DNA from: a virus
Length of the DNA stretch: 44,975 nucleotides
Virus genome (UHGV): UHGV-0285350
Direction: 5' to 3' (one strand)
Program-made: the position numbers and the translations under genes
The notes under the pieces: model-generated
The model's database searches: none
Seen by the model: only the letters and a program-made list of their open reading frames with translations
What the model was told of the DNA's origin: nothing
Part shown: positions 5,352-24,096 of the stretch, piece after piece
How positions within the stretch are numbered: the first letter of the stretch is position 1
Layout of the letters: each line of letters begins with the position of its first letter

Positions 5352-6139
5352 TCGATCACTCCGTTTTGAGTCGTATCAAAATTCCTGGCAGGTATGCAGT
5401 AGTAAAGCGAACCAACATGCTGTGTGCCGTAGCTAAAAATACGGTGCACGTACCACCAGCGGCGCGCTACGCCGTTTACCATCTCTTCATTCCATTCAAG
5501 AATTGAGCCGACGGGGACGTTATTTGCTGCAATACGCAGAATCAGAACATCATCGGTTAAGCCATCCTGCTCACCGTCTGCGTCAATCGCATGGAAAGAG
5601 TCACGCCCGTCAGGGTTATCCAGCACATAAACGATTTCAGGTTCCTGGTAAGTCAGTTCGCGTTGGTTGTTATCCAGTTCGGTGAATGACTCTTCTCCTG
5701 TTTCGTCGCTGACTACCCCATATGTGCCAACATCTGGTCGATATAAGAGAGCCTGAAACGCGTCTGGGCTGGATTCAATAATCAGCATCCAGTCTGCGCG
5801 GATTTGGTCGTTAAAGGCTTTATGCCCGTTATAGCGTGCTTTTAACTGTGGAGTCGGTTCTCTGCCAGCCAGGGAAGATGGAAGTATGGCTATATCTGAT
5901 TCGCCAGCATCCGGAGTAAGGCCACCGTTGCTATCAGCAAAATTATCATGGCTATCAGCTTTGGCGGCGGGTTGCTCTTCCAGAATGCTGAATGAATCCG
6001 AACCGGTATTGCCATGTTCCGGCGCGCCTCCTGCATTCGCTTCAATCGGCGCTGGCGTTTCTCTCTGCGTGCTGTCATGTTCTGACTCCTTACTTGCCAG
6101 GTTTGCATCGTCAGCAAACCATTCGTCAAAACGGCCCAT
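5348..6139 (-). CDS. hypothetical protein with acidic, low-complexity N-terminal half
   Basis: First gene of the leftward module; start placed at ATG (MGRFDEW...) 6 nt after AGGA; track ORF begins at TTG 6151. Confidence 0.5.
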   Translation of the reverse strand: MGRFDEWFADDANLASKESEHDSTQRETPAPIEANAGGAPEHGNTGSDSFSILEEQPAAKADSHDNFADSNGGLTPDAGESDIAILPSSLAGREPTPQLKARYNGHKAFNDQIRADWMLIIESSPDAFQALLYRPDVGTYGVVSDETGEESFTELDNNQRELTYQEPEIVYVLDNPDGRDSFHAIDADGEQDGLTDDVLILRIAANNVPVGSILEWNEEMVNGVARRWWYVHRIFSYGTQHVGSLYYCIPARNFDTTQNGVIE

Positions 6140-6233
6140 AAGCATCCTCAAAGGTCGATCTGTCAGGTATCGAAAGGAAGATTTTCTGGAGATTGTGATT
6201 TTGGATGAAGGAGGGGGAATTCATAAAATGCAC

Positions 6234-6262
6234 TTGCGCACAGTGCAGCGGTGCGCTATAGT
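6234..6262 (+). promoter_or_regulatory. candidate sigma70 promoter for higBA (-35 TTGCGC, 17-bp spacer, -10 TATAGT) overlapped by inverted repeat GCGCAC-N9-GTGCGC
   Basis: Hexamers and spacing read from sequence; palindrome overlapping the spacer is the usual arrangement for antitoxin autorepression. Confidence 0.4.
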
Positions 6263-6301
6263 TATGGCATTCGGTAATCATCACGGAGGATCAAATGACT
6301 A

Positions 6302-6604
6302 ATGACCAAAAAAATTAACATAAAGGATTTCAGGGATGCGTGGCTTGATGATTTTTTTGAATTTTCAACACCACATAGAAAGATACCTCCTGATATTCAT
6401 ATGACATTGTCACGGAAGTTGGACATTATCAATGCCGCAACTACCTGTAAGGATTTAAGATCACCACCAGGTAATCGGTATGAGGAACTGTCAGGGAAGC
6501 TAAATGGCTATTCATCAGTAAGGGTGAATAAGCAATATAGGTTAATTTTTAAGTGGGTTAACGGAAAGGCCGAGGACTTGTATCTCGACCCTCACAAATA
6601 CTAA
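6302..6604 (+). CDS. higB: type II toxin HigB (RelE/ParE superfamily)
   Basis: C-terminal LSGKLNGYSSVRVNKQYRLIFKWVNGKAEDLYLDPHKY aligns with HigB LKGDREGYWSITVRANWRITFQFINGDAYILNYEDYH; toxin-first order with HTH antitoxin directly downstream. Confidence 0.8.
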   Translation: MTKKINIKDFRDAWLDDFFEFSTPHRKIPPDIHMTLSRKLDIINAATTCKDLRSPPGNRYEELSGKLNGYSSVRVNKQYRLIFKWVNGKAEDLYLDPHKY

Positions 6605-6674
6605 AACAGATACCCGGTTACGGACCGGGTTCTGACCAGAGTCCACTTAATACGCACGCTAGTAAGGGCAAAAA

Positions 6675-7013
6675 ATGAAACAGGCAACCAGAAAACCGAC
6701 GACCGTAGGTGATATCCTGCTGTACGAATACCTGGAGCCGTTAGAGCTGAAGATCAACGAGTTGGCAGAAATACTTCATGTTCATCGTAACACCGTAAGT
6801 GCTCTTGTTAATAATAATCGTAAGCTAACGATGGATATGGCATATCGCCTGGCAAAAGCATTCGATACTTCTGTAGATTTTTGGATTAATCTTCAGACCG
6901 CAGTAGACCTGTGGGAAGTCGAAAATGATATGCGCGTTCAGGAAGAGTTAAGTCGTATCAATACTGCTGAAAAATTTATTTCTCAGCGGAACCTGAATAA
7001 AAAAGCAGCCTGA
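6675..7013 (+). CDS. higA: antitoxin HigA (XRE-family HTH, VapI type)
   Basis: N-terminal HTH LAEILHVHRNTVSALVNNNRKLTMDMAYRLAKAFDTSVDFWINLQ typical of HigA/VapI antidote proteins; immediately downstream of higB. Confidence 0.8.
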   Translation: MKQATRKPTTVGDILLYEYLEPLELKINELAEILHVHRNTVSALVNNNRKLTMDMAYRLAKAFDTSVDFWINLQTAVDLWEVENDMRVQEELSRINTAEKFISQRNLNKKAA

Positions 7014-7069
7014 TATAGTAAAACACATACAAAAAGCCCACTTAGCAAGTGGGCTTTCCTTTGTAATTA

Positions 7070-7372
7070 ATGAACATTAAACCTATCCGTACAGAACAAG
7101 ATTATGAGGCCGCACTGCGTGCGGTCGAACCGATGTTCGATAACGAGGAGTACGAGAAAAAACATTACCCAATTGAGCCACCATCACCTATTGAGGCCAT
7201 TAAATTCCGTATGGAACAGCAAGGGCTGACCGTGAAGGATCTGGAACCGGCGATTGGTAAGTCAAATCGTGTTTACGAAGTGCTAAATGGGACACGAAAT
7301 TTGACGTTACCTATGATTCGCCGTTTACATTCCCAGTTTGGCATTCCTCTTGAAAGCTTGGTTGGTATTTGA
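7070..7372 (+). CDS. second HTH (XRE-type, C-terminal HTH) antitoxin-like regulator
   Basis: C-terminal LTVKDLEPAIGKSNRVYEVLNGTRNLTLPMIRRLHSQFGIPLESL resembles HigA-family antitoxins with C-terminal HTH; no cognate toxin directly upstream. Confidence 0.6.
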   Translation: MNIKPIRTEQDYEAALRAVEPMFDNEEYEKKHYPIEPPSPIEAIKFRMEQQGLTVKDLEPAIGKSNRVYEVLNGTRNLTLPMIRRLHSQFGIPLESLVGI

Positions 7373-12874: not shown

Positions 12875-13453
12875 CTAATTTATCAATTCAATCGCCATCT
12901 GATACAACGTCATTTCATCGGCATTGTGCCGCATGAAATCTGCTTTTCCGCCTATTTTTCCATCAGCATGAACAGGGACCAGCCAGGGATATTGTTCTCG
13001 GACCTCGGCTGGCGCTGCGTACTGGTGGTGCCATTTACACAAAGGGAGGACATATTTATGCGCGTTCTCTGCCGTTCTCCCGAAGATATGGTGCAGGGAT
13101 ACCACTGGGCTATGTTGCCCGTGAATATGGCAGGCAATGCAGGGGAGAGTACCGATAGCGGTCTGTATCCGGCGTTCATCGGCTGTGAGTGATCTGCCCT
13201 TCAGGCCGCGTGACGTGCGTGTTTTTTTGGACGGAGTGGATACAGCTTTCTCTTTTCTCCGCTGGTCATATTGCTTTGCTTTTTCAATTCTCTTTTGCCG
13301 ATATTCAGGCGATGCGGCTTTTTCTCTCGCTCGTTGCTGCTGGCGTTGAGCTTGTTGAAGGCGCTTTGCCCTTTGTTCCTCTCGCCAGGCTGGGTCAGCC
13401 AATTTTTGCATGGCTTTTTGTCTCTGTTTCTCCCAATAGCTCTGTTTCTGCAT
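12875..13453 (-). CDS. Ref-like (phage P1 recombination enhancement function) HNH-type nuclease with basic low-complexity N-terminal region
   Basis: N-terminal about 90 aa Arg/Lys/Gln-rich; C-terminal LPCIACHIHGQHSPVVSLHHIFGRTAENAHKYVLPLCKWHHQ has Cys/His spacing of an HNH zinc-finger nuclease; architecture matches P1 Ref as I recall it. Confidence 0.55.
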   Translation of the reverse strand: MQKQSYWEKQRQKAMQKLADPAWREEQRAKRLQQAQRQQQRAREKAASPEYRQKRIEKAKQYDQRRKEKAVSTPSKKTRTSRGLKGRSLTADERRIQTAIGTLPCIACHIHGQHSPVVSLHHIFGRTAENAHKYVLPLCKWHHQYAAPAEVREQYPWLVPVHADGKIGGKADFMRHNADEMTLYQMAIELIN

Positions 13454-13484
13454 GATGGCTGCCTCTTACTTTTCAGCTATTTTT

Positions 13485-13535
13485 CTATGATTGATCAAAA
13501 TAGTTAGATATTCAAAATTGATTTTCTAACACAAA
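13485..13535. promoter_or_regulatory. divergent control region with repeated TTCTA/TTAGA half-sites including TTTTCTAACA
   Basis: ttttcta...tagttagata...attttctaacacaaaac read from sequence between the leftward Ref-like gene and the rightward early operon. Confidence 0.35.
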
Positions 13536-13725
13536 ACATTAATATCATTTCTGATAACTGTTTGGAGGACATGATGCTTATAGCTTTAAGTGCGATCCAC
13601 CAGCCATCTGTGAATGAGATTGGCCTGTTCTATGTGTTGTTTTTCGGGGCGTTGGCGCTACTTGAGCTTGGTATTGAGCTTTTCGCAGTGCTTATGTTTT
13701 GCGTCACGATTTTGGGGAAATTTTG

Positions 13726-14337
13726 ATGGTGAAACGTGTTTTGAAAATTTACATCGCGGGGCCGATGACTGGTTATCCAGATTACAACCGTGCGGCGTTT
13801 AATGCGAAAGCGAGCGAGTTGATGGCTGAAGGGCATATCGTTCTGAATCCAGCTGTGTTACCTGGTGGCCTTTGTCAGAGTGAATACATGGATATTTGCC
13901 TGGCAATGGTGCGTTCTGCTGATGCGATCTACTTGCTCAATCGATGGGAGGAATCGATTGGTGCTCGTGCAGAGCACGCGCTGGCTGAAAAGCTGGGGCT
14001 GACTGTAATTTATGAGTCACCAACCAACATTGAATGCCAGGTTGCTCCGCATATTTACCGGGAACTGGTCAATGCACTGCGTGATATCGCTGCTGTATAT
14101 CACGGCACAGAACAGCTTCGTGAGCGTTTAGCCCATACCATTTTCTATTACCTGTCTTTATCTCATGAGCACAAGCTCCGCCAGAAGGTAATGATCAAAT
14201 TTATCATGAGGTTATCGAAATCCCTGGCAAACGCCGATCCAAAGAATCCATTACCGAAAGAGGCAATGAATTACCTGAAATCCTGCAACGTTGTTTCTGA
14301 AGATGGCGTTCTTTTGGTTAGAAGGAGTTCTGCGTGA
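13726..14337 (+). CDS. DUF4406-like (nucleoside 2-deoxyribosyltransferase-like fold) protein with about 100-aa C-terminal extension
   Basis: KIYIAGPMTGYPDYNRAAFNAKASELMAEGHIVLNPA matches the YIAGPM(T/S)G signature; start at ATG 13726. Confidence 0.55.
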   Translation: MVKRVLKIYIAGPMTGYPDYNRAAFNAKASELMAEGHIVLNPAVLPGGLCQSEYMDICLAMVRSADAIYLLNRWEESIGARAEHALAEKLGLTVIYESPTNIECQVAPHIYRELVNALRDIAAVYHGTEQLRERLAHTIFYYLSLSHEHKLRQKVMIKFIMRLSKSLANADPKNPLPKEAMNYLKSCNVVSEDGVLLVRRSSA

Positions 14338-14366
14338 GCTGGCGGGGATGGGGAAGGGCAGAAATC

Positions 14367-14651
14367 ATGATACTCCGCCAGTGCGCCGGGACTATGACAG
14401 TCGAGAGTATTGGGAGGCTGATCGGGCGTACCGGTAGTGCTGTCAGAACCAAAGCGCGGCAACTGCGGATCTGCATGATTCTGAAAGGAGACTTTCACCC
14501 GTCAGCCAAATACCGGCAGGGCGATATAGAACTGGCACGGCAGCTTCATCGGTGTGGTGTTCCCCGCCGTGAGATCGCGGAAAAACTCGAAATGCCCCTG
14601 GGCATGATTAATCAGTACGTTTATTTCGAAAGGAGAGTGTATGAAGTCTGA
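14367..14651 (+). CDS. hypothetical small protein with two HTH-like segments (putative DNA-binding)
   Basis: Start placed at ATG after GGGAAGGG; track ORF starts at GTG 14334 overlapping the previous stop. Confidence 0.4.
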   Translation: MILRQCAGTMTVESIGRLIGRTGSAVRTKARQLRICMILKGDFHPSAKYRQGDIELARQLHRCGVPRREIAEKLEMPLGMINQYVYFERRVYEV

Positions 14652-15192
14652 AGGTTTAACGCCCGCACAACTGGCAGAGCGTAACGCTGAGTATGTAACG
14701 GAAATTTCCCGACTTGAGAAAGCGTGTGCTGCGCTGGCGGCGGAGAATGCTGGGCTGAAGTCTGAAGCTCCACTTGGTGCCATCGAGAATGGCAGAGCGT
14801 TTGCAGACCGTTTAGAGAATTACCAGTTCGAGTGTGAAGGCGGAAACCTAAACATGTGCAGTGATTGGCAGGAGTTTCGCCGTTGCTTCGAGTATTTATC
14901 TGAATGGGCAATGCATAGCCAGACAGAGCACCCAGCCACCGATGCTTTCCTGGCTGAAGTGAAGACTGAAGCACGCAAGGAGGGCGCTTACTTTGTGGCG
15001 AACAGAATGCTGGCTGCCTGGGAAGCTGGTTTTATTGATGATACTGCGAAGAACGCCGCGGATATTGCCCGGATGATTCTTACCTCTACTGAGTTTATGG
15101 CTAATGCGCCGGAAGGCGATTTTGACCGCTCATTCTCTGATGGCGTTCTCGAAGATATCGCCGCCCAGCTTGGAAAAGGAGGCAAACAGTGA
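14641..15192 (+). CDS. hypothetical protein, paralogue A (coiled-coil N-term; conserved C-terminal domain shared with 16304..17002)
   Basis: Shares ALEAKCAALAAENA(G/R)LK and PATDAFLAEV(K/R)(T/A)EAR(K/N)EG blocks and C-terminal GKGGKQ/RKGSSQ with the downstream paralogue. Confidence 0.6.
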   Translation: MKSEGLTPAQLAERNAEYVTEISRLEKACAALAAENAGLKSEAPLGAIENGRAFADRLENYQFECEGGNLNMCSDWQEFRRCFEYLSEWAMHSQTEHPATDAFLAEVKTEARKEGAYFVANRMLAAWEAGFIDDTAKNAADIARMILTSTEFMANAPEGDFDRSFSDGVLEDIAAQLGKGGKQ

Positions 15193-15377
15193 GTAACCGT
15201 TTTTACATGATGTGCTTGCGTGAAACTGTGGGTAATAACGCCTCATTCCATTGCCATAACGGCAATGGTTACAGTTCTTGGCGCGGCGGAAGCGTTTATG
15301 ATGCAGAAGCATGGCGAGATGGCTATGAAGCAGGGAAAACGCCTGTCGAAGTATATTGTGATGAGTGGGGTGGGTGA
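15189..15377 (+). CDS. small Cys/His-containing protein (62 aa)
   Basis: GTG start overlapping upstream stop (GTGA); stop overlaps methyltransferase ATG (TGAATG); residues C9, HCH, C57. Confidence 0.4.
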   Translation: MSNRFYMMCLRETVGNNASFHCHNGNGYSSWRGGSVYDAEAWRDGYEAGKTPVEVYCDEWGG

Positions 15378-16106
15378 ATGATTTGCCTTCACAACGCAGA
15401 CTGCTTTGACATCTTTCCGCAAATCGCCAGCAACTCCGTAGATCTTGTATGTGCCGATATTCCATATGGAACAACTCGGTGTCGCTGGGATTCTGTTCTC
15501 GACCTGCAGTTGATGTGGAAGCAGATTTACCGTATTTCCAAACCGAACGCTGCAATTGTTCTGTTTTCCGCTCAGCCTTTTACCAGCGTGCTGGTCAACA
15601 GCAATCTTCGTGACTGGAAAACAGAATGGATTTGGGAAAAGCCACACGCGACAGGATTTTTGAACGCAAAAAAACAACCTTTAAGAGCGCATGAAAATAT
15701 TGAAGTTTTTTACAGAAAGCAACCGACATACAACCCACAGATGACGTATGGGCACGCCAGAAAAACCTCAACAAGAGGTAGGCTGAATACTGATGTATAT
15801 GGCGATGCGCTGAAAAAGGTCGTTTACGATTCAACAAGTCGCTATCCGAGAGACGTGCAGAAATTCTCCAGCGACAAGCAAAAGCAGGCACTTCATTCAA
15901 CACAAAAGCCACTGGCTCTGGTGAGATATCTGATTGAAACATATAGCAATATTGGCGACACAGTGTTGGATTTCACTATGGGTAGCGGAACTACTGGCGT
16001 TGCGTGCCAACAATCAGGACGCCGATTTACAGGAATAGAAAAAGATCCAGAAATTTTTCGTATCGCATTAGAGCGTATGGGAATTAAACAGGAGCATGCA
16101 GCATGA
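15378..16106 (+). CDS. DNA methyltransferase, N6-adenine/N4-cytosine beta class
   Basis: Motifs DIPY (catalytic DPPY variant), HSTQKP, and FTMGSGTTGVA (SAM-binding FxGSGTT) in beta-class order. Confidence 0.85.
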   Translation: MICLHNADCFDIFPQIASNSVDLVCADIPYGTTRCRWDSVLDLQLMWKQIYRISKPNAAIVLFSAQPFTSVLVNSNLRDWKTEWIWEKPHATGFLNAKKQPLRAHENIEVFYRKQPTYNPQMTYGHARKTSTRGRLNTDVYGDALKKVVYDSTSRYPRDVQKFSSDKQKQALHSTQKPLALVRYLIETYSNIGDTVLDFTMGSGTTGVACQQSGRRFTGIEKDPEIFRIALERMGIKQEHAA

Positions 16107-16124
16107 TTTTTGTGGAGGCAACCA

Positions 16125-16307
16125 GTGAGCGAAATTAACTATCAAGAACTGCGCGAGGCGGCGGAACAGGCAACGCAAGATGAATGGGTAGCATATATTT
16201 TGCCGGTCATAACGGCATTTATCCTGCGCGCACGTCTGAGGGTAGGCATTGCGGATACTTTATTGACTGGCCTGGCGTCTGTCAGGGGCGGGAGAGCATC
16301 AGCATGA
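16125..16307 (+). CDS. possible small protein (60 aa)
   Basis: GTG 6 nt after GGAGG; stop overlaps start of next gene (ATGA); track lists a longer in-frame ORF from 16110. Confidence 0.35.
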   Translation: MSEINYQELREAAEQATQDEWVAYILPVITAFILRARLRVGIADTLLTGLASVRGGRASA

Positions 16308-17002
16308 GCATCAGAACCTACGCAGTGAATTGCAATGACGCATGGCTAAACACCGAAGGTGATGACATCTCCGGCTCATACGTTAAGTACAAAGACCATC
16401 AGGAAGTGGTTGCCGCTCTTGAGGCCAAGTGCGCGGCGCTGGCAGCGGAGAATGCAAGACTGAAGGCCGGGGCTATGTATTTCTCATATGGCTCTGAATT
16501 TAGTTTCGAGTGTCACAAAACTGCTGAGGAGGCTATCGCTGCTGCTGAGGCTGCAATTGACGACTATAGAGGCGATGCTTGCGATGGATGGAGCGAAGAG
16601 GTCGAAAGCATTTGCTGGGGGGTAATTATTCAGCAGGCAACCAAGGTCGGTGAACGCAAGAAGAGGAAATGCGACAGAGTATCACCATGGATTGAAAGAG
16701 TTTGTGATTATGAGCTTCGACCTAATGTCGAAACCCCAGCCACCGATGCTTTCCTTGCTGAAGTACGTGCTGAAGCACGCAACGAGGGGATTAACTATAC
16801 CGCCAGCCGTCTTGCTGCTGCGTTCAATCACGGATTTATCAATAAGTCTTTGCGTGAAGTTTTCGACGTTACACGCATGATTTTGTCAGCGAAAGAAGAG
16901 TTGGCTAATGAAGCGCATCCGATTGATGGCCTGTCTGGTGAATATGCGGAGAAATCCCTTGAAGAATGGGCGGAACAGATTCGCAAAGGAAGCAGCCAGT
17001 GA
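16304..17002 (+). CDS. hypothetical protein, paralogue B (with Cys-containing insertion)
   Basis: Same conserved blocks as 14641..15192 plus an about 60-aa insertion (CHKTAEEA...CDGWSEEVESICWG...KCDRVSPWIERVCD). Confidence 0.6.
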   Translation: MSIRTYAVNCNDAWLNTEGDDISGSYVKYKDHQEVVAALEAKCAALAAENARLKAGAMYFSYGSEFSFECHKTAEEAIAAAEAAIDDYRGDACDGWSEEVESICWGVIIQQATKVGERKKRKCDRVSPWIERVCDYELRPNVETPATDAFLAEVRAEARNEGINYTASRLAAAFNHGFINKSLREVFDVTRMILSAKEELANEAHPIDGLSGEYAEKSLEEWAEQIRKGSSQ

Positions 17003-17274
17003 ATATCGACACGACAATAACGATCGATACGCTCCTAAATACCGGTCTGGCACTTCTCGGTTGGCTTTACATCATGTCCCGTACCTGGCGATGGCTGGGT
17101 TCCATTTTCCTAAAAGAGTGGAAAAAACGGCGCAAACAGGAACTACGCCAGAAGGCATTAGAAGCGTTCTATGACGCATTTGAACTTAGCCGCATTGAAC
17201 CAGGCACAACAGCCAGAATAGCGACAAAAGGCGACCTGATGATAGTGATGTTCAGACAGGAGAAAACCAAATGA
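16999..17274 (+). CDS. small membrane protein (1 TM)
   Basis: GTGA overlap with upstream stop; hydrophobic LLNTGLALLGWLYIMS followed by basic stretch. Confidence 0.4.
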   Translation: MNIDTTITIDTLLNTGLALLGWLYIMSRTWRWLGSIFLKEWKKRRKQELRQKALEAFYDAFELSRIEPGTTARIATKGDLMIVMFRQEKTK

Positions 17275-17495
17275 CAGAACAGACGATGACAAATCGCGAA
17301 CTTGTTGATGCCGCGATTGAACTTGCTGGCGATTTTTATTCCATGATGGGGTACACGCATCGCCCAGGCTTCAAATATTGGGAGTCTCCGCACCCGCAAG
17401 AGCAACGGGTATTTCAAATGGCCTGCCGCGCTTTTGAAGTTATTCGCGGTTCTGATGTGATGGACGCGGTTGCTGATTTGGAGGATGAAGAGTGA
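17271..17495 (+). CDS. hypothetical protein
   Basis: 74-aa ORF translationally coupled to neighbours. Confidence 0.45.
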   Translation: MTEQTMTNRELVDAAIELAGDFYSMMGYTHRPGFKYWESPHPQEQRVFQMACRAFEVIRGSDVMDAVADLEDEE

Positions 17496-17803
17496 ACACA
17501 ATTAAAGAAATGCCGGTAGAACGTGATGAATATGGCTGCTGGACACATCCGGAGTATGAAAAGTTTTGCGCAGGTCGTGAATATATTTCTACTGAGGAAT
17601 TTGACGCCTGGATGAAGGAAAATAATCTTCAGTGGACTATTCGCAGTATGGATGAAGATGATTTTGATCTGGACGCAGCTGGTCCCGATATTGCCGCCTG
17701 GGAACCGGAGCGACCAGAGGGTGAAGGCTGGTTTGTTGGCTCTATTCATGACACTGAAGATGGTCCGGTTTGTATCTGGCTGCGTGAGAAGGTTGCCGCA
17801 TGA
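17492..17803 (+). CDS. hypothetical acidic protein
   Basis: 103-aa ORF translationally coupled to neighbours. Confidence 0.45.
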
Positions 17804-18492
17804 CCCAGGCTCTGCATGAAGTGAATTTATATAGCCGTATTGATGGTTCTGGCTATAGAAACATATGGGTTGTTGGTGATCTGCATGGTTGCTACACCAG
17901 ACTGATGTCCGAACTCCATCGTGTGGATTTTGACCCGGCGCAGGATTTACTGATATCGGTTGGCGACCTTATCGATCGCGGTACTGAAAATGTCGAATGT
18001 CTGGAACTATTGCAGATGCCCTGGTTCAGGGCAGTAATGGGGAACCATGAGCGGTTGATGCTTGATGCGTTAAGTCCTGATGGCAACGTGAATAACTGGC
18101 TAATGAATGGCGGACAATGGTTCTTCATGCTGGACACTGATCAGGAAATATTAGCCAAGGCGCTGGTGGAGCTGGTAAAGCGTCTGCCATATATCATTGA
18201 GTTGAACGCCGGGCATGAAACTATCGTTATAGCCCATGCCGACTATCCAGGTGGAGAGTACCAGTTCGGTAAGGATGTGTCGCTTTTTGATGTTGTCTGG
18301 TCGCGCAGTCGCGTCGGTGATTCGATAGATGGCATTGGTGGAGAAATCACAGGCGCAGATCGCTTTATCTTTGGGCACACACCGGTACGAAGACCAAAAG
18401 CATACTGGAATCAGCACTACATAGACACGGGCGCGGTTTTTTGCGGAAATCTGACGCTAATGCAGGTGAAGGGAGGGCAGCTTAAAGTCTGA
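17800..18492 (+). CDS. serine/threonine protein phosphatase (lambda-phosphatase-like metallophosphoesterase)
   Basis: Metallophosphatase motifs GDLHG, GDLIDRG, GNHE in canonical order. Confidence 0.85.
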
Positions 18493-18518
18493 TCAAATCA
18501 TTTACGCACTCAAATCAC

Positions 18519-18546
18519 GTTAGAACATTGATTTTAGTTTTCTAAC
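18519..18546. promoter_or_regulatory. inverted repeat GTTAGAA-N14-TTCTAAC upstream of the 18590 operon; candidate operator
   Basis: Read from sequence; same motif family as 2897-2940 and 13522-13531. Confidence 0.35.
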
Positions 18547-18589
18547 ATATTATTTTACCGATCGGAACAAAACAGAGTCGGTATGCATT

Positions 18590-19585
18590 ATGAGTGCAAT
18601 AATCACCCCATATGTCGTAAATGAAACTGGTGTGGCTGTCTTTCCTGTAGATAAGCCCACCAGCAATTACATCGGCGCAGGACGCCGTTTTCTTATATCC
18701 CCATTGCCGCGTGAACAGGCTGAAAACACCCCTGATGGTGTCGTTGACCTGAATTATTCACTGGTTGCCAACCAGTCACTGGCACCCTTTTTTCAAAGTG
18801 AGCGTGTATTTAACGCGTTAGGTGGTGAGGATTCTCTCGTTCACTGGGTTAGCACCAACATTCACGATTGCCAGGCGCACGATAAGCGCGATTGCAGCCA
18901 CCAGCTAACCACTCATTTCTATAACGGCTCTGCCGTTCGCCTGTGCTGGAAGCATGATGCGGAATACATGATGAAGGGGTACAGCAAGCTGGACGACCAG
19001 TTATCCCTGAATCGTGCCAACTGGGTTATGAACTGGGCTGCGAGCGAGTTAAAACTACCGCCAGAACGCGATCTGAGCATGGTTGAACTCACTTTTTGGG
19101 CCATTCGCCGGAATCTGAAAGATGAGCTGCCAGATGAAGCCGGTCGCATTGCATTTTGTCAGCCAAAAACTGAAATCCCTACCGGTACGCTGAAAGAATC
19201 AGATATCACCTGGGAGCACAGTACCCGCGAGCTGGTGGACATAACCGCAGAGCAGATCGTCAACCTGTCTGTAGATGAGGATTCCGGCCTGCTTTATATG
19301 CGCCGACCAAAAGCGGTCCTCGGTAAAAGCCCGGCTTATCTCCGGTTTGTGGTTTCTCGTCCGTGCATCGGATGCGGTGGCAAAGTTAACCACCCGTTCA
19401 TGTACCGCGCCCGCTCGTTAAACGAACACGACCGCTGGGCTGTTCCTCTTTGCGATGACTGCGCCAGAAGCGCAGAAAACGATGTCCGGGCATGGGAAAA
19501 AGCACATGGCATACGCCTTTACGTAGCCGCTAACCAGCTTTTTGACTTCGCCATCGAGCGCGGAGTGATCACTTTCAATAACTGA
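18590..19585 (+). CDS. hypothetical protein with C-terminal HNH-like zinc-ribbon motif
   Basis: C-terminus RPCIGCGGKVNHPF...SLNEHDRWAVPLCDDCA fits CxxC-x5-H-x10-N-x2-H-x7-CxxC (HNH core); large N-terminal domain unassigned. Confidence 0.5.
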   Translation: MSAIITPYVVNETGVAVFPVDKPTSNYIGAGRRFLISPLPREQAENTPDGVVDLNYSLVANQSLAPFFQSERVFNALGGEDSLVHWVSTNIHDCQAHDKRDCSHQLTTHFYNGSAVRLCWKHDAEYMMKGYSKLDDQLSLNRANWVMNWAASELKLPPERDLSMVELTFWAIRRNLKDELPDEAGRIAFCQPKTEIPTGTLKESDITWEHSTRELVDITAEQIVNLSVDEDSGLLYMRRPKAVLGKSPAYLRFVVSRPCIGCGGKVNHPFMYRARSLNEHDRWAVPLCDDCARSAENDVRAWEKAHGIRLYVAANQLFDFAIERGVITFNN

Positions 19586-19589
19586 TGAG

Positions 19590-20282
19590 GTGGATCAAAA
19601 AATGAAAGAACGCGGGATGATTTTTAACGATGAGATGGTCAGGGCCATCCTCGAAGGAAGGAAGACGCAGACTCGCCGACCTGTAAAAAATGTCAGGGCC
19701 GATAACTGCCTGGTTATCCGTAAACCGACAAAGAAACGCAATGGTGTCTATACCCACGTTATGGATGCACCTGAACATGGTTTATGCCCGTTCGGTAACG
19801 TTGGTGATCGCATATGGGTCCGTGAGGCGTGGGCGATATTAGGCAATGAGGATGGTTGCAGTGTGGACTGGAACGACAACCTTTGTCGTGGCGATGAGAA
19901 GAACGCAGCAAGGATTTATCGGGCCAGTTGTGAGCAAAAGCCGGGTGATTACGGCTTGTGGTCGATACCCGATGATGCCGACTGGAAACCTCACACTGTG
20001 AATGAAAAATTTGATGGCGGGTGGTGTCCATCAATTCACATGCCGCGCTGGGCATCGCGCATTTTGCTGGAAATTACCGACGTGCGTGTGGAACGGCTGC
20101 GTGATATGAGCGAGGCAGATGCTAAAGCAGAAGGCGCATCTCCGGCGATGTACAAAATTACGCCGCCGGAAGCTGTTTATCGCGTTGGTTTTGGTGATAT
20201 CTGGCGCAGTATTTACGGGCAGGATAACTGGCTATCTAACCCGTGGGTATGGGTAATCGAGTTTAAGCGCGTTCAGGAATAA
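19590..20282 (+). CDS. ASCH/PUA-like domain protein (tentative) with Cys-containing insertion
   Basis: N-terminal MIFNDEMVRAILEGRKTQTRR resembles the ASCH GxKxxExR motif; C-terminal ...ILLEITDVRVERLRDMSEADAKAEG resembles the conserved ASCH C-terminal strand; assignment by motif recall only. Confidence 0.45.
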   Translation: MDQKMKERGMIFNDEMVRAILEGRKTQTRRPVKNVRADNCLVIRKPTKKRNGVYTHVMDAPEHGLCPFGNVGDRIWVREAWAILGNEDGCSVDWNDNLCRGDEKNAARIYRASCEQKPGDYGLWSIPDDADWKPHTVNEKFDGGWCPSIHMPRWASRILLEITDVRVERLRDMSEADAKAEGASPAMYKITPPEAVYRVGFGDIWRSIYGQDNWLSNPWVWVIEFKRVQE

Positions 20283-20285
20283 ACC

Positions 20286-21164
20286 GTGAGTATGCATCAA
20301 GTTGTCAGCTTTTCAGGTGGACGAACATCGGCTTATCTCGTTCATCTGATGGAAGCACAGCGAAAAGCTGGCGCTAGCGTCCATTTCATTTTTATGGATA
20401 CCGGCTGTGAACATCCTCTGACGTATCGCTTTATTCGTGAGGTTGTGAAGTTCTGGAACGTACCGCTAACGGTGTTGCAGGTCGATATAAATCCAGAACT
20501 TGGGCAGCCAAATGGTTATACGGAATGGGAACCAAAGGATATTCAGACGCGAATGCCGGTGCTTAAACCGTTTATGGACATGGTTAAAAAGTACGGTACG
20601 CCATACATCGGCGGCGCGTTCTGCACTGACAGATTAAAACTCACCCCCTTCACAAAATACTGCGATGACCATTTCGGACGAGGGAATTACATCACATGGC
20701 TGGGTATTCGTGCAGACGAACCTCGTAGGCTGAAACCAAAATCGGGCGTCCGGTATCTTGCCGAGCTATCTGATTTTGATAAGTCGGATGTTATCCGGTG
20801 GTGGCATAAACAACCTTTTGATTTGCAAATCCCGGAGCATCTCGGGAACTGTATTTTCTGCATCAAAAAGTCCACGCAAAAACTGGGGCTTGCATGTAAA
20901 GACGAACCTGGTCTGATGCGGGTTTTTAATGAACTGGTTACAGGCAAACACGTCAGGGATGGTCATCGCAGAACAGGTAAAGACGTTATGTACCGTGGTC
21001 ACCTGACGCTTGACGGGATTGCCAGAATGTATGCCGACAGCGACTACAGAAATTTGTATCAGGCGATGGTGCAGGCCAAGCGGTTTGATACTGGTTCGTG
21101 TTCCGAATCATGTGAAATCTGGGGTGACCAATTGGAGTTGAAATTCGAAGAGGTAGTGGTATGA
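20286..21164 (+). CDS. PAPS-reductase-family PP-loop protein with C-terminal Cys cluster
   Basis: VVSFSGGRTSAYL is the PP-loop (SGGxxS) of the PAPS reductase / adenine-nucleotide alpha-hydrolase family; cysteines GNCIFCIKK and CSESCEIW suggest a metal or Fe-S site. Confidence 0.75.
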   Translation: MSMHQVVSFSGGRTSAYLVHLMEAQRKAGASVHFIFMDTGCEHPLTYRFIREVVKFWNVPLTVLQVDINPELGQPNGYTEWEPKDIQTRMPVLKPFMDMVKKYGTPYIGGAFCTDRLKLTPFTKYCDDHFGRGNYITWLGIRADEPRRLKPKSGVRYLAELSDFDKSDVIRWWHKQPFDLQIPEHLGNCIFCIKKSTQKLGLACKDEPGLMRVFNELVTGKHVRDGHRRTGKDVMYRGHLTLDGIARMYADSDYRNLYQAMVQAKRFDTGSCSESCEIWGDQLELKFEEVVV

Positions 21165-21640
21165 CAAACAAAATTGACTATCAAAAACTTCGTGAAATCG
21201 CTGAAAAAACAAAAATTGCTGGTGAAGCACCTGTAATGCCTTTCGATCAGCGAATTAATGCGCTTAACGATTTTATGAAGCACTTTTCGCCAGATATCGC
21301 GTTGGCATTGTTGGATGAAGTTAAACGCCTAGAAGACACAAATATTGATTCTATATGCCGAATTGCAGAGATGGAGACGCGGGAAATAAAACCAGCAAAA
21401 GGCGAAGTTCTTGTCGTTGTATCTGGTTTTACTGGTTGCGGAAAAAGCGCCATTGCCGGGGAAATAGAAATCGCGATGAAGGCTATTGGTGTACCGGTTC
21501 AGTGGACTAATGGCGATGCAGAAAAGCGCATGACAGGAGCTGACTGGCTGACAGCAATTGAGATGTACAAACCAACAGTGCGCATCGTTGAAGTTAATGT
21601 GCCACGCGTCCCTGGCATTCGCATCAAAGGAGGTGAGTAA
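21161..21640 (+). CDS. hypothetical small P-loop protein
   Basis: VVVSGFTGCGKSAIA matches Walker A GxxxxGK[ST]; only 159 aa. Confidence 0.45.
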   Translation: MTNKIDYQKLREIAEKTKIAGEAPVMPFDQRINALNDFMKHFSPDIALALLDEVKRLEDTNIDSICRIAEMETREIKPAKGEVLVVVSGFTGCGKSAIAGEIEIAMKAIGVPVQWTNGDAEKRMTGADWLTAIEMYKPTVRIVEVNVPRVPGIRIKGGE

Positions 21641-21816
21641 TGCGTGTGGCATGTATCGGCTTGTTACCGTACCCGACTCGTTTTTGGGCTTCTGCGCTAA
21701 TTGCAAAGCCACATGTACTGATGGCTGACAACATCATCCCGGCACCAAATCGCCGCCATACCGGTATTGCAGCGGCACGACGTGCAGCAAAGAAACGCAG
21801 GAGAGCAAAGCGATGA
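21640..21816 (+). CDS. possible small Arg/Lys-rich protein (58 aa)
   Basis: ATG overlaps upstream stop (TAATG) and is preceded by AAAGGAGGTGA SD; stop overlaps next ATG; not in track (<60 aa). Confidence 0.45.
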   Translation: MRVACIGLLPYPTRFWASALIAKPHVLMADNIIPAPNRRHTGIAAARRAAKKRRRAKR

Positions 21817-21995
21817 AAAACCGTAAGGCAAAAATTCTGTTAGCTCGCAGAAACGGTGTTGGGGTCTGGCGATGGTTGAGGATTAGTAACAGACGAGTGA
21901 GGTTGACGGGGTGTTGCGGGGTGATGTTGCACAGCTGTTGCAAAAAGCCCAGCGCGGCGCAAAACCGCTGGAAGAATCACACTAACGCAAAGTAA
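21813..21995 (+). CDS. possible small Cys-rich basic protein (60 aa)
   Basis: ATGA overlap with upstream ORF; CCGVMLHSCC cluster. Confidence 0.35.
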   Translation: MKNRKAKILLARRNGVGVWRWLRISNRRVRLTGCCGVMLHSCCKKPSAAQNRWKNHTNAK

Positions 21996-22012
21996 TTAAA
22001 TAATAACCAATA

Positions 22013-22038
22013 ACAGACCAAAACATATGTTTTGGTCT
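22013..22038. promoter_or_regulatory. perfect 26-bp palindrome CAGACCAAAACAT|ATGTTTTGGTCTG, followed by a second CCAAAA-N6-TTTTGG repeat
   Basis: Read from sequence; exact dyad symmetry around AT|AT; sits between the early operon and the gemA region. Confidence 0.45.
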
Positions 22039-22062
22039 GCCAAAAGTAGTGTTTTGGTCATT

Positions 22063-22341
22063 ATGAAGATTGAACAAGTCGGAATGGCAGCTTTCAGGCA
22101 ACAGGCTGAAAGCGGTGGCGTGGATGAGTTCGTCGTGCAGCGGTTCGGTGGTGTGTATCACCTCTTCGCTGTGAATCGCCGCGCCGGGGTGTCCTATTTT
22201 CTACAGGAACGCCGTGGCGATTACAAGACGTGGCTGTCTCTTGACCGTGCCGCCGCGTTCCTGTCGGGGATTGGTGTTTCACGTTTTACCGTGCGTTTTG
22301 AGGATAACAAACATGCTGAAAAAGATGATCGGGGCCATTAA
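22063..22341 (+). CDS. hypothetical protein
   Basis: ORF in track (22027..22341); start ambiguous (ATG 22027 inside palindrome, or ATG 22063); no clear SD for either. Confidence 0.35.
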   Translation: MKIEQVGMAAFRQQAESGGVDEFVVQRFGGVYHLFAVNRRAGVSYFLQERRGDYKTWLSLDRAAAFLSGIGVSRFTVRFEDNKHAEKDDRGH

Positions 22342-22708
22342 AGCCGGTCAGGCATATCTGGGGTGGGATGATGCTCTTTATCGCCAGACACTGGTCCGCC
22401 TGACAGGTAAAACCAGCACCACACGCTGCAATCTCGATGAACTGCGCATCATCCGGGAATACATGCACGAACAGGGATTCCCGCGCAAGGCACCCGCTGG
22501 TAAAGGTCGCCGCCCTCGTGTTGCAATGAGCAGAAAATCAGTATTATCCAAAATTGAAGCGTTGCTGGCTGATGCCGGTCGTTCCTGGGCGTATGCAGAA
22601 GGACTGGCATCTCACATGTATAAGCAACATGTGATCGAATGGCTGACGGATGATCAACTGTTTGGGGTGATGGTGGCGCTGGTTAAAGATTCAAGGAGAC
22701 GTAAATGA
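22313..22708 (+). CDS. gemA: GemA-like protein (Mu gp16 / DUF1018 family)
   Basis: MLKKMIGAIKAGQAYLGWDDALYRQTLVRLTGKTSTTRCNLDELRIIREYMHEQGF matches the Mu GemA/gp16 pattern; ATG after GAGGA. Confidence 0.7.
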   Translation: MLKKMIGAIKAGQAYLGWDDALYRQTLVRLTGKTSTTRCNLDELRIIREYMHEQGFPRKAPAGKGRRPRVAMSRKSVLSKIEALLADAGRSWAYAEGLASHMYKQHVIEWLTDDQLFGVMVALVKDSRRRK

Positions 22709-23043
22709 AAAAACTGTTATTACTTATTCTGGCTTTATGTTTTACAGGGATATCCCATGCTTCTGATTCAGAGGAAGATTTGATCAAAAAAACATTACAG
22801 GGCGATTATCAGGCACAACGTAATCTGGCTTATTCATACATGAATGGCTGGGATGATATTTCAAAGGATACCATTAGAGGATGTGCTCTCAGGAAGGTTA
22901 TTCTCTTAACACAAGCCCAAGCTGACATTGGCGATTATGGAAATGAAGCCATAGATTGTCGAAAAGTGCATCCAACAGATAACCAGAAAGTATGGGAGTA
23001 TGTCAGAGGATACCTGGTGTTAATAAACGAGAATAAAAAATAA
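22705..23043 (+). CDS. hypothetical secreted protein (signal peptide), AT-rich moron-like gene
   Basis: MKKLLLLILALCFTGISHA signal peptide; local AT-richness; followed by strong terminator. Confidence 0.55.
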   Translation: MKKLLLLILALCFTGISHASDSEEDLIKKTLQGDYQAQRNLAYSYMNGWDDISKDTIRGCALRKVILLTQAQADIGDYGNEAIDCRKVHPTDNQKVWEYVRGYLVLINENKK

Positions 23044-23055
23044 TATGAACAAAAA

Positions 23056-23080
23056 CCTTCGCAAACGCGGAGGTTTTTTA
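23056..23080 (+). terminator. rho-independent terminator (ccttcgc-aaac-gcggagg then tttttt)
   Basis: Hairpin and U-run read from sequence immediately after stop of 22705..23043. Confidence 0.6.
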
Positions 23081-23084
23081 TGGT

Positions 23085-23113
23085 CTGTACAGGCGATCAT
23101 GTATGGCTATAAT
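23085..23113 (+). promoter_or_regulatory. candidate promoter for Mor/C-family gene (-10 TATAAT at 23108-23113; weak -35 CTGTAC)
   Basis: Consensus -10 hexamer about 30 nt upstream of the 23143 ATG; -35 is poor, compatible with an activator-dependent promoter. Confidence 0.35.
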
Positions 23114-23142
23114 AACAGTAAGTTACTACCGGAGACGCCATC

Positions 23143-23610
23143 ATGCAGACCTTCAGTGAAACAGATCTTCGCGATGCGCAGGCACTGCTGCCCGACTCCG
23201 TGCAGCAACTGATTAGCGTGATTGGCTTCCCCGCTCTGACCCGGTTGATTCGTTCTTTTGGTGGTGTGACGTTAAGTGGTAAAACCGGCGCACACGCCGA
23301 ACGCACCGGCGGTGTCCATGCCCTGTTACATGACGTGCTGACCGAAGACGAAATCAACAAACTGATCCGCTTTCTTGGCGGCGCACCGTTTTACATTCCC
23401 CGTTGCGATCATGCTTTACGTGCCCTGCGTAACACCCGTTTTATGGCTGATTTACAGCGGCATCTCAGGGACGGATTCTCACATCGGCAGGCGCTGGCAC
23501 AGCTTTGTCCCCGTTACGGGATTTCAGACCGGTACGCATGGCAACTGATACACCGACGACAAAAACAGACTTCGCTGAAAAGCCCCACCCAGGTGGGGCT
23601 TTTTGATTAA
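23143..23610 (+). CDS. Mor/C-family transcriptional activator of phage middle/late genes
   Basis: C-terminal HTH ...LAQLCPRYGISDRYAWQLIHRRQK typical of the Mu Mor/C family; cannot tell whether this is the Mor or the C equivalent. Confidence 0.7.
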   Translation: MQTFSETDLRDAQALLPDSVQQLISVIGFPALTRLIRSFGGVTLSGKTGAHAERTGGVHALLHDVLTEDEINKLIRFLGGAPFYIPRCDHALRALRNTRFMADLQRHLRDGFSHRQALAQLCPRYGISDRYAWQLIHRRQKQTSLKSPTQVGLFD

Positions 23611-23635
23611 TGGGCCTCAGAAAAAGGAGACACTT

Positions 23636-23914: not shown

Positions 23915-24096
23915 TTTATCACCCCGCCGCCGCGGGGTGCTGAACTCCCCCAGCAGTACCCACCACACCAGACCGTTTACCCTGTCCACTCAGACCACAA
24001 GGCACCTTAAGGGATAGCGCCCTGCAAAAGGCTTATGTGCCTTTGACAGGGTGTTATTTACGGGCCGTCAGTGGCTCAGATTTACAGGAGAAACTC

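What the first reader, a model, noticed from the sequence alone, without database searches (positions are those of the whole stretch)
13726..14337. DUF4406-like (nucleoside 2-deoxyribosyltransferase fold) protein with a C-terminal extension as first gene of the long early operon
The YIAGPMTG signature marks a fold family whose members act on nucleosides or nucleotides. A phage copy with an extra about 100-aa domain, heading an operon that also encodes methyltransferase and PP-loop enzymes, could take part in nucleotide-pool manipulation or DNA hypermodification.
Basis: partly seen in the sequence, partly recalled or inferred. Interest (0 to 1): 0.5.

Follow-up and report, generated by a model that had tools for sequence, protein, structure and literature searches.

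The report
Phage DUF4406 nucleotide-sugar-cleaving enzyme homologue
This gene of a D6-like E. coli phage-plasmid encodes a small, already catalogued phage protein (DUF4406) that probably cuts the base off deoxynucleotide monophosphates. It carries a tail of two short shuffled helical modules and shows no conserved link to DNA hypermodification, so it is a fairly ordinary accessory gene.

Summary

The window is a D6-like P1-family phage-plasmid. The gene is D6 orf89, already annotated as DUF4406, and sits on plasmids in 99 of 5,426 complete E. coli genomes.

Profile alignments place invariant Tyr9, Ser77-x-Gly79 and Glu83 on the tyrosine, the 5'-phosphate-binding Ser-x-Gly and the nucleophilic glutamate of MilB and DNPH1. 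True transferases have Asp where Ser77 lies. Mycobacteriophage Wanda fuses DUF4406 to a MazG-type pyrophosphohydrolase. I therefore infer a 2'-deoxynucleoside 5'-monophosphate N-glycosidase. This is untested.

The tail consists of two short modules also found in P22 EaA, the P1 PmgT/PmgU region and DUF551 proteins. It is under purifying selection and recombines independently of the core.

The methyltransferase and PAPS-reductase genes are variable cargo: D6 itself lacks both. A hypermodification pathway is not supported. A 50-aa ORF precedes the gene, so it is not strictly first in the operon. Interest is modest.

The parts
12875..13453 (-). Divergently transcribed Ref-like RecA-dependent endonuclease gene. 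It is the conserved left neighbour of the locus.
   Evidence: ORF. Annotated as ref in D6 and in the E. coli plasmids.
13503..13530 (.). Imperfect inverted repeat (GTTAGATATTCAA / TTGATTTTCTAAC) in the ref/DUF4406 divergent spacer. It is a possible operator; function not tested.
   Evidence: 13-nt arms, 85% complementary, 2 nt apart. No sigma-70 consensus promoter and no P1 C1 operator nearby.
13574..13726 (+). 50-aa hydrophobic small ORF (D6 orf88) that precedes the DUF4406 gene. It has a strong GGAGGA ribosome-binding site, and its stop overlaps the DUF4406 start (TGATG).
   Evidence: Sequence. Annotated in D6 and as a 51-aa hypothetical protein in RefSeq plasmids. No Pfam match.
13726..14337 (+). 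The finding: a 203-aa DUF4406 protein (D6 orf89 homologue).
13744..14013 (+). DUF4406 core (aa 7-96), a minimal four-strand NDT-fold domain. Predicted catalytic and binding residues: Tyr9, the Gly12-Pro-Met-Thr-Gly16 loop, Cys58, Ser77-x-Gly79 and Glu83.
14038..14175 (+). Tail module A (aa 105-150, 'PHIYRELVNALRD..YHGTEQLRERL'). This is a promiscuous helical module of about 40 aa.
   Evidence: An exhaustive search gave 189 clusters, nearly all matching only this stretch. Sequences and alignment. Found in P22-like EaA/Eaa2, the P1 PmgT/PmgU region, P7 Upf89.5/90.5, SJ46 and RCS47. Some carriers contain DUF551. AF2 helices 101-125 and 130-148, pLDDT 70-77 for blocks 111-150.
14176..14325 (+). 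Tail module B (aa 151-200, 'LRQKVMIKFIMRLSKSLANADPKNPLPKEAMNYLKSCNVVS'). This rarer second module ends in a low-confidence tail.
   Evidence: Also present, attached to unrelated N-termini or in a different order, in P0122, P0126, P0128 and P0177. pLDDT is 29-60 from aa 151, and below 50 for aa 177-203.
14334..14651 (+). Conserved right neighbour: a small helix-turn-helix 'DNA-binding protein'. Either its GTG start overlaps the DUF4406 stop (GTGA), or it starts at the ATG at 14367 as in RefSeq.
   Evidence: Weak Sigma70_r4_2 match. Present next to DUF4406 in every D6-like plasmid inspected. Fused to a truncated DUF4406 protein in variant P0059.

Best explanation
Shown: the gene encodes a member of Pfam DUF4406, a minimal (about 95-aa) version of the nucleoside 2-deoxyribosyltransferase (NDT) fold. 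It is carried as a conserved accessory gene (ref | small ORF | DUF4406 | HTH protein) by D6-like P1-family phage-plasmids of E. coli, Shigella and Salmonella. Its C-terminal 107 residues are a helical tail built from two short modules that are shuffled among mosaic early proteins of enterobacterial temperate phages. Inferred mechanism: the core is an N-glycosidase acting on a 2'-deoxynucleoside 5'-monophosphate, using DNPH1/MilB-type chemistry. Glu83 would attack C1' and be positioned by Tyr9. The 5'-phosphate would be held by Ser77, Gly79 and the backbone of the Gly12-Pro-Met-Thr-Gly16 loop. The products would be a free base and deoxyribose 5-phosphate. The protein would act on its own on the nucleotide pool (sanitation, or removal of a dNMP that the host or a defence system would otherwise use), not as part of a DNA-modification pathway. 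The tail most likely mediates self-association or docking to a partner, and may stand in for the C-terminal lid that neighbouring subunits supply in DNPH1 and NDT. The substrate base is unknown. The confidence value below refers to this inferred mechanism; family and fold membership are near-certain.
Confidence: 0.45

Rival explanations
1. It is a genuine nucleoside 2'-deoxyribosyltransferase that swaps bases between deoxynucleosides for salvage, as the PHROG 355 label and many phage annotations say.
For: PHROG 355 'nucleoside 2-deoxyribosyltransferase', E 8.2e-43. The best sequence-level PDB hit is T. brucei NDT. The Tyr and the nucleophilic Glu are conserved.
Against: The Asp of the NDT 'D-x-G-T-x-x-E' motif is an invariant Ser here, as in the nucleotide-specific MilB and DNPH1. 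The general-acid Asp is not conserved. The C-terminal third of NDTs is absent, because the domain ends near aa 96. In NDTs that part completes the base pocket from the neighbouring subunit (my own knowledge of the L. leichmannii enzyme). The fusions are with NTP pyrophosphohydrolases, which produce NMPs, not nucleosides.
Confidence: 0.12
2. It is not a dNMP hydrolase. Instead it binds or cleaves another ribose-phosphate compound, such as NAD+, NMN, ADP-ribose derivatives or a nucleotide immune signal. It would then work as a counter-defence sponge or TIR-like glycohydrolase.
Against: NDT, MilB and DNPH1 score higher than TIRs and are the only families reached by sequence profiles. The invariant Tyr9 argues for a 2'-deoxy sugar by the MilB F17Y precedent. 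There is no credible match to PADLOC defence or anti-defence models (only E 0.012, 13 bits). No defence-related neighbours are conserved.
Confidence: 0.15
3. One reading: it works with the operon's DNA methyltransferase and PP-loop (PAPS-reductase-like) enzyme in a DNA hypermodification pathway.
For: All three genes lie in one co-directional gene run in this window. In Pseudomonas phage Touem01 a DUF4406 gene is followed by a putative DNA methylase.
Against: The partnership is not conserved. D6 (99% identical locus) has neither gene. NZ_CP067430 lacks the methyltransferase, and NZ_CP047013 lacks both. The operon is a mosaic in which no record covers 80%. The methyltransferase is an ordinary N6/N4 type. 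Across phages the neighbours are replication, recombination and nin genes. An N-glycosidase destroys nucleotides rather than building modified ones.
Confidence: 0.04
4. The C-terminal tail is functionless debris from illegitimate recombination in a mosaic region, and only the 96-aa core matters.
For: Most family members are stand-alone proteins of about 95-101 aa. Extensions differ widely among relatives. The last 27 residues are predicted disordered. The junction is a recombination point.
Against: The tail is kept intact in all 99 E. coli plasmids with the gene. It has two divergent alleles, both open. dN/dS is 0.38-0.50 at dS about 0.5. Modules A and B recur as a unit on other N-terminal domains (P0122, P0126).
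Confidence: 0.1

Closest known systems
DNPH1 / Rcl (2'-deoxynucleoside 5'-phosphate N-hydrolase 1; PDB 4P5E, 8OS9, 2KHZ)
   Different: DUF4406 is about 50 residues shorter and lacks the segment that gives Ser128', Ala129' and Met130' from the second subunit. The Asp80 equivalent is Cys58. Sequence similarity is not significant pairwise. It is a viral or prophage protein, not a eukaryotic one. No activity has been shown.
MilB / BlsM / BcmB CMP and hydroxymethyl-CMP N-glycosidases (PDB 4OHR, 4JEM, 5VTO, 4JEN)
   Different: MilB and BlsM have Phe where DUF4406 has the invariant Tyr9; F17Y turns MilB into a dCMP enzyme. MilB's base- and phosphate-binding Phe22 and Arg23 are Met14 and Thr15 here. 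MilB Asp78 aligns with Cys58. MilB works in antibiotic biosynthesis clusters.
Nucleoside 2'-deoxyribosyltransferases (PF05014; e.g. T. brucei 2A0K, L. leichmannii 1F8X)
   Same: Best sequence-level relative among solved structures (E 7e-4; Foldseek E 3e-4). The 'IYIAGP' start and the nucleophilic Glu are shared.
   Different: NDTs have Asp, not Ser, six residues before the Glu. They also have a general-acid Asp and a C-terminal lid. They act on nucleosides, not nucleotides.
Stand-alone DUF4406 proteins of lambdoid prophages and other phages (PHROG 355; e.g. P0074, Vibrio phage Cla CLA_0047, Arthrobacter phage Tophat gp93)
   Same: Same Pfam family with 36-65% identity in the core and identical invariant residues. 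All are early, replication or nin-region accessory genes.
   Different: They lack the A+B tail. Among 50,697 phage records only D6 has it.
P22-like EaA/Eaa2, P1 PmgT/PmgU-region and DUF551-type mosaic early proteins; compared loosely with lambda Ea22
   Same: They share tail module A (aa 105-150) at 44-67% identity. Like Ea22, they are multi-module early proteins of temperate enterobacterial phages (PMC7093339 and PMC10834534, listed).
   Different: They carry no DUF4406 core. Their functions are unknown. No Pfam Ead_Ea22 match was found in the module-A carriers tested, so the link to Ea22 proper is by analogy only.

Membership tests
Pfam DUF4406 (PF14359) | Match to the family HMM above the curated gathering score, over the full model | tested here: met
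   115.9 bits against a cut-off of 22, E 1.1e-33, profile positions 2-91 of 91.
Pfam DUF4406 (PF14359) | Family-invariant residues present (Y9, G12, P13, N21, F25, P42, W74, S77, G79, A80, E83) | tested here: met
   All are present in the window protein and invariant in alignment A4 of members at 36-60% identity.
NDT-fold superfamily (NDT, DNPH1, MilB; distantly TIR) | Three-layer alpha/beta fold with a parallel sheet that superposes on solved members | tested here: met
NDT-fold superfamily | Nucleophilic Glu at the start of helix 3, partnered by an aromatic residue (Tyr or Phe) at the end of strand 1 | tested here: met
   E83 aligns with the Glu of 'GTAFEVG' (T. brucei NDT) and 'GTHVEIG' (MilB, BlsM). 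Y9 aligns with 'IYIAGP' and 'VFLAGP'. Both are invariant.
Nucleoside 2'-deoxyribosyltransferase (EC 2.4.2.6, PF05014) | Asp six residues before the nucleophile (D-x-G-T-x-x-E) | tested here: not met
   The position is an invariant Ser77. T. brucei NDT has Asp in 'PDCGT'.
Nucleoside 2'-deoxyribosyltransferase (EC 2.4.2.6, PF05014) | General-acid Asp in helix 2, and a C-terminal segment from the neighbouring subunit that completes the base pocket | tested here: not met
   The MilB Asp78 / DNPH1 Asp80 position is Cys58 and is not conserved in the family. The domain ends at about aa 96 and is followed by an unrelated helical tail. PF05014 itself was not matched.
Nucleotide N-glycosidases of the NDT fold (DNPH1, MilB, BlsM, BcmB) | Ser-x-Gly 5'-phosphate-binding motif before the nucleophilic Glu (S-x-G-x-x-x-E) | tested here: met
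   S77-I-G79-A-R-A-E83 aligns with MilB S97-P-G99-T-H-V-E103 and has the same spacing as DNPH1 S98-L-G100-V-G-Y-E104. Roles of these residues come from PMC4081090 and PMC10483697.
Nucleotide N-glycosidases of the NDT fold (DNPH1, MilB, BlsM, BcmB) | General-acid/base Asp (DNPH1 Asp80, MilB Asp78) | tested here: not met
   It aligns with Cys58 in this protein. The position is Asp in four of the five actinophage members aligned, and Cys, Gly or Ala elsewhere.
Nucleotide N-glycosidases of the NDT fold (DNPH1, MilB, BlsM, BcmB) | Measured release of base plus (deoxy)ribose 5-phosphate from an NMP or dNMP | not testable with these tools
   Needs an enzyme assay. The literature holds no such data for DUF4406.
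TIR / SLOG-type NAD+ or ADPR-signal enzymes and binders | Closer structural or sequence match to TIR or SLOG than to NDT-type enzymes; association with defence or anti-defence loci | tested here: not met
Phage DNA hypermodification pathway (nucleotide-level or post-replicative) | Conserved co-occurrence with the modification enzymes proposed as partners (methyltransferase, PP-loop enzyme) | tested here: not met
   Both are absent in D6. One or both are absent in other plasmids carrying the same DUF4406 gene. The operon is a mosaic.
Phage DNA hypermodification pathway (nucleotide-level or post-replicative) | A non-canonical base in virion DNA | not testable with these tools
   Requires nucleoside LC-MS of phage DNA.

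The most novel reading that the evidence does not exclude
DUF4406 proteins could be a large, uncharacterised family of viral minimal dNMP N-glycosidases whose job is counter-defence or pool control. They would destroy a particular deoxynucleotide monophosphate: a precursor of an immune signal, a defence-made toxic nucleotide, or a damaged dNMP. The precedent is T5 Dmp, which defeats the Kongming system by depleting dAMP (bioRxiv 10.1101/2024.12.20.629578). In the D6 lineage, the shuffled A and B tail modules would dock the enzyme onto a partner shared with EaA, PmgT/U and DUF551-type proteins. These ubiquitous mosaic early proteins would then be a common targeting scaffold.
Probability: 0.15. 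Interest if true: 0.6.

Novelty: new member of a known kind. Interest (0 to 1): 0.3.

Why it matters
DUF4406 is one of the commoner unexplained small proteins of phages and prophages. It occurs in 582 of 50,697 phage records and in more than 4,000 protein clusters, from enterobacterial prophages to mycobacteriophages.

The residue-level comparison gives a concrete, cheap test: look for base release from dNMPs, with E83Q, Y9F and S77D as controls. If the test is positive, this would be a viral counterpart of DNPH1 and MilB, adding an enzyme class to phage nucleotide-pool control.

For this particular window the practical message is negative. The gene is an ordinary, already annotated accessory gene of D6-like phage-plasmids. 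Its neighbourhood gives no reason to expect hypermodified DNA.

The promiscuous 40-aa module A is a minor point of interest for understanding how mosaic early proteins of temperate phages are assembled.

Tried and rejected
- **Single-sequence phmmer against PDB:** only chance-level hits (E > 0.5). A profile of close relatives (A2) gave marginal NDT hits. Only the diverse profile A4 gave useful alignments.
- **hhalign of A2 against human DNPH1:** not significant (probability 0.4%). The DNPH1 comparison therefore rests on motif spacing and fold, not on a scored alignment.
- **Word-indexed search with the tail alone:** returned only the same family. The exhaustive search was needed to see module A.
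- **Pfam scan of the tail:** nothing, even at E 10.
- **PADLOC and NCBIfam:** no credible match for the protein or its HTH neighbour.
- **Regulatory signals in the upstream spacer:** the promoter scan found no site, a P1 C1 operator search found none, and a candidate operator word occurs only once. 'Early' or C1-controlled expression remains unverified.
- **Extra copies of modules A and B in the window:** none found.
- **Literature:** 'DUF4406' occurs in three papers, all incidental. Searches on deoxyribosyltransferase plus anti-defence, and on retron N-glycosidase, gave nothing on this family. The 2,6-diaminopurine preprint concerns PF05014, not DUF4406.
- the afdb50 fold library was unavailable. 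Model coordinates are not exposed to scripts, so active-site geometry was not measured.
- **'Deoxycytidylate deaminase' labels on actinophage homologues:** rejected as misannotation. Those proteins are 124-139 aa and contain only DUF4406.

Full report
**What and where**

The window is a D6-like member of the P1 family of phage-plasmids. Bases 13400-14700 are 99.1% identical to Escherichia phage D6 (NC_050154, 76515-77815). The 612-bp gene is found in 99 of 5,426 complete E. coli genomes, always once and always on a plasmid; the listed examples are 87-109 kb.

In D6 the gene is orf89, annotated 'DUF4406 domain-containing protein; similar to N-term half gp57 of phage N15'. The object is therefore already in the databases, with no assigned function.

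**Checking the observation**

The ORF 13726-14337 (+) starts with ATG and encodes 203 aa. Pfam DUF4406 matches residues 7-96 end to end (E 1.1e-33, 115.9 bits). PHROG 5781 covers the whole protein (E 4.5e-101), and PHROG 355, labelled 'nucleoside 2-deoxyribosyltransferase', matches the core (E 8.2e-43). The YIAGPMTG signature is residues 9-16. Residues 97-203 lie outside the Pfam domain.

The methyltransferase (15378-16106, PF01555) and the PAPS-reductase-like PP-loop protein (20286-21164, PF01507) are present in the same gene run.

One detail needs correction. A 50-aa hydrophobic ORF (13574-13726) comes first, behind a GGAGGA ribosome-binding site. Its TGA stop overlaps the DUF4406 ATG (TGATG), which suggests translational coupling. 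At the 3' end the stop overlaps a GTG (GTGA) of the next gene, a small helix-turn-helix protein.

I could not verify 'early' expression. The 120-bp spacer to the divergent ref gene has no consensus sigma-70 promoter and no P1 C1 operator. It contains only a 13-nt imperfect inverted repeat at 13503-13530.

**Fold**

An AlphaFold2 model built on 30 homologues is confident for the core (pLDDT mostly 86-98, with one 10-residue block at 77). It shows a four-strand, three-helix alpha/beta unit (strands 7-11, 38-40, 67-70, 93-96). This is followed by three helices (101-125, 130-148, 154-168; pLDDT 60-77) and a low-confidence end at 177-203.

- Foldseek against the PDB and against viral models gives the same families.
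- By sequence, the single protein finds nothing in the PDB.
- A profile of diverse family members reaches T. brucei NDT (E 7e-4), MilB (E 0.012-0.019) and BlsM (E 0.043).

The fold assignment is sound.

**Active site**

I aligned the window protein with members from Vibrio, Pseudomonas, Ruegeria, Arthrobacter, Gordonia, Microbacterium and Mycobacterium phages (36-60% identity). Eleven positions after the start Met are invariant: Y9, G12, P13, N21, F25, P42, W74, S77, G79, A80 and E83.

| DUF4406 residue | Aligned residue in solved enzymes | Known role there |
|---|---|---|
| E83 | Glu of the NDT motif G-T-x-x-E; MilB Glu103 | Nucleophile; E103A is the inactive MilB mutant |
| S77, G79 | MilB Ser97, Gly99 | Bind the 5'-phosphate of hmCMP (PMC4081090) |
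| S77-x-G79-x-x-x-E83 | DNPH1 Ser98, Gly100, Glu104 (same spacing) | Ser98-OH and Gly100-NH bind the phosphate |
| G12-P-M-T-G16 loop | DNPH1 Ile29, Arg30, Gly31 | Backbone NH groups bind the phosphate |
| Y9 | DNPH1 Tyr24; NDT 'IYIAGP'; Phe of BlsM 'VFLAGP' | Tyr24 hydrogen-bonds Glu104 (PMC10483697) |
| C58 | MilB Asp78; DNPH1 Asp80 | General acid |

Three points follow from the table.

- The nucleoside-specific T. brucei NDT has Asp at the Ser77 position.
- The MilB F17Y mutation reverses specificity from CMP to dCMP (cited in PMC4081090). The invariant Tyr9 therefore argues for a 2'-deoxy sugar.
- The general-acid position is Cys58 here. It is Asp in four of the five actinophage members aligned, so that part of the catalytic set is not conserved.

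The domain also ends after strand 4. It lacks the segment that in DNPH1 supplies Ser128', Ala129' and Met130' from the other subunit.

The sugar-phosphate half of a DNPH1/MilB-type active site is therefore strictly conserved. The base-recognition half is family-specific (N21, F25, P42, W74).

**Context and fusions**

In lambdoid prophages the stand-alone 95-116-aa form sits in the nin region, between the replication genes and Q and near DUF977, hok, DUF968 and RusA. In marine, actinobacterial, Vibrio and Pseudomonas phages it lies among helicase, DnaQ, sliding-clamp, RusA, RNase H and MazG genes.

Mycobacterium phage Wanda gp162 is a fusion of DUF4406 (aa 7-111) with a MazG/PRA-PH-type pyrophosphohydrolase domain. 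Gordonia phage RoyalG has DUF4406, RusA and MazG in a row. Viral structure hits include fusions named 'dATP/dGTP diphosphohydrolase'. A pyrophosphohydrolase makes (d)NMPs, which fits a (d)NMP-consuming partner.

The family is large: 4,218 clusters in the profile search, mostly of 95-101 aa, and 582 phage records, 200 of them mycobacteriophages.

**The supposed partners**

The methyltransferase and the PP-loop gene are not conserved neighbours. D6 has neither in this operon. NZ_CP067430 has the PAPS-reductase gene but no methyltransferase, and NZ_CP047013 has neither. No E. coli record covers 80% of the 8.6-kb stretch.

What is constant is the order ref (-) | small ORF | DUF4406 | HTH protein, and further downstream the ppp phosphoesterase and a DUF968 gene. 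The hypermodification reading therefore has no comparative support.

**The C-terminal extension**

A word-indexed search with residues 101-203 returned only the same family. An exhaustive HMMER search of 1.84 billion representatives with residues 99-203 returned 189 clusters, nearly all matching only residues 105-150 of the full protein.

This 'module A' (H-x-x-R-E-L-V-N-x-L-R-D-x-A-x-x-Y-x-G-x-x-Q-L-R-E-x-L) sits at the N-terminus, the middle or the C-terminus of proteins of very different lengths, sometimes twice. Some of these proteins carry DUF551. In cultured phages it occurs in P22-like EaA/Eaa2, the P1 PmgT/PmgU region, P7 Upf89.5/90.5, SJ46 and RCS47.

'Module B' (residues 151-200) is rarer. 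It follows A on unrelated N-terminal domains in P0122 and P0126. It is in a different order or position in P0128 and P0177. Neither module matches Pfam or occurs elsewhere in the window.

Four plasmid alleles show all combinations of two core types and two tail types. For example, the window against L019 has core dS 0.41 and tail dS 0.05, while the window against L020 has core dS 0.11 and tail dS 0.48. Recombination therefore occurs at the junction. dN/dS is 0.12-0.27 for the core and 0.38-0.50 for the tail, so both halves are constrained, the tail less so. Among 50,697 phage records only D6 has this tail on a DUF4406 core.

I interpret the tail as an oligomerisation or docking appendage. That is inference only.

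**Mechanism and alternatives**

The best-supported reading is a 2'-deoxynucleoside 5'-monophosphate N-glycosidase that acts alone on the nucleotide pool (confidence about 0.45 for the chemistry; family and fold are near-certain).

- A true deoxyribosyltransferase is less likely, because of the Ser-for-Asp change and the missing lid (about 0.12).
- A TIR-like or sponge role on NAD- or ADPR-type ligands cannot be excluded (about 0.15).
- The hypermodification pathway is unlikely (about 0.04).
- The tail may be dispensable debris (about 0.10).

A possible biological rationale has a precedent. T5 Dmp depletes dAMP and thereby blocks the Kongming defence. A dNMP glycosidase could do something similar, but nothing here tests that.

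**Verdict**

This is a correctly spotted but ordinary and already annotated accessory gene. The fold claim is right, the pathway speculation is not supported, and the extension is a pair of shuffled helical modules. The useful outcome is a specific, testable prediction for a widespread family of unknown function.

Noticed in passing
window 13574-13726 (+): A 50-aa, very hydrophobic small ORF (MMLIALSAIHQPSVNEIGLFYVLFFGALALLELGIELFAVLMFCVTILGKF) with a strong GGAGGA ribosome-binding site heads the gene run. It is translationally coupled to the DUF4406 gene. It is probably a small membrane peptide, and it is conserved in D6 and in RefSeq plasmids.
   Followed up: partly
window 13503-13530: A near-palindrome (GTTAGATATTCAA aa TTGATTTTCTAAC) lies in the divergent ref/DUF4406 spacer and could be an operator. 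No P1-type C1 operator is present anywhere in the window.
   Followed up: partly
window 14334-25300 (+), compared with L001 (D6), L002 and L003: The long + strand gene run is highly mosaic between otherwise near-identical D6-like plasmids. The N6/N4 methyltransferase (15378-16106) and two Ea22-like genes (14641-15192, 16184-17002) replace different cassettes in D6. The gene at 19590-20282 plus the PAPS-reductase gene (20286-21164) form a pair present in some plasmids and absent in others. The ppp phosphoesterase (17800-18492) and the DUF968/pdcB gene (18590-19585) are constant.
   Followed up: partly
protein P0059 (E. coli plasmid contig), aligned in A1: A natural variant joins the DUF4406 core and the first half of module A directly to the C-terminal half of the downstream HTH protein. 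This looks like a deletion fusing the two adjacent genes.
   Followed up: no
proteins P0076, P0089, P0094, P0097, P0098, P0099 (alignment A1): Many DUF4406 proteins instead carry an N-terminal module of about 70 aa (MNKLQALNWLxENVTxWP...GWxW...). The family core is therefore repeatedly decorated with different small modules at either end.
   Followed up: no
L012 (Mycobacterium phage Hoonter gp114) and L013 (Microbacterium phage Percival gp30): Stand-alone DUF4406 proteins of 124-139 aa are annotated 'deoxycytidylate deaminase' in several actinophage records. Pfam finds only DUF4406 in them, so the label looks like a propagated misannotation.
   Followed up: yes
NC_050154 (phage D6), second tblastn place for the tail query: D6 has a second locus matching module A. 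By analogy with P1 it is probably in the pmgT/pmgU-like region. No second copy exists in this window.
   Followed up: no
window 5886-7372 (+) by comparison with L001: The D6 annotation places a toxin-antitoxin pair and a transcriptional regulator between tail and baseplate genes, upstream of the locus. ORFs of matching size are present in the window (6302-6604, 6675-7013, 7070-7372).
   Followed up: no
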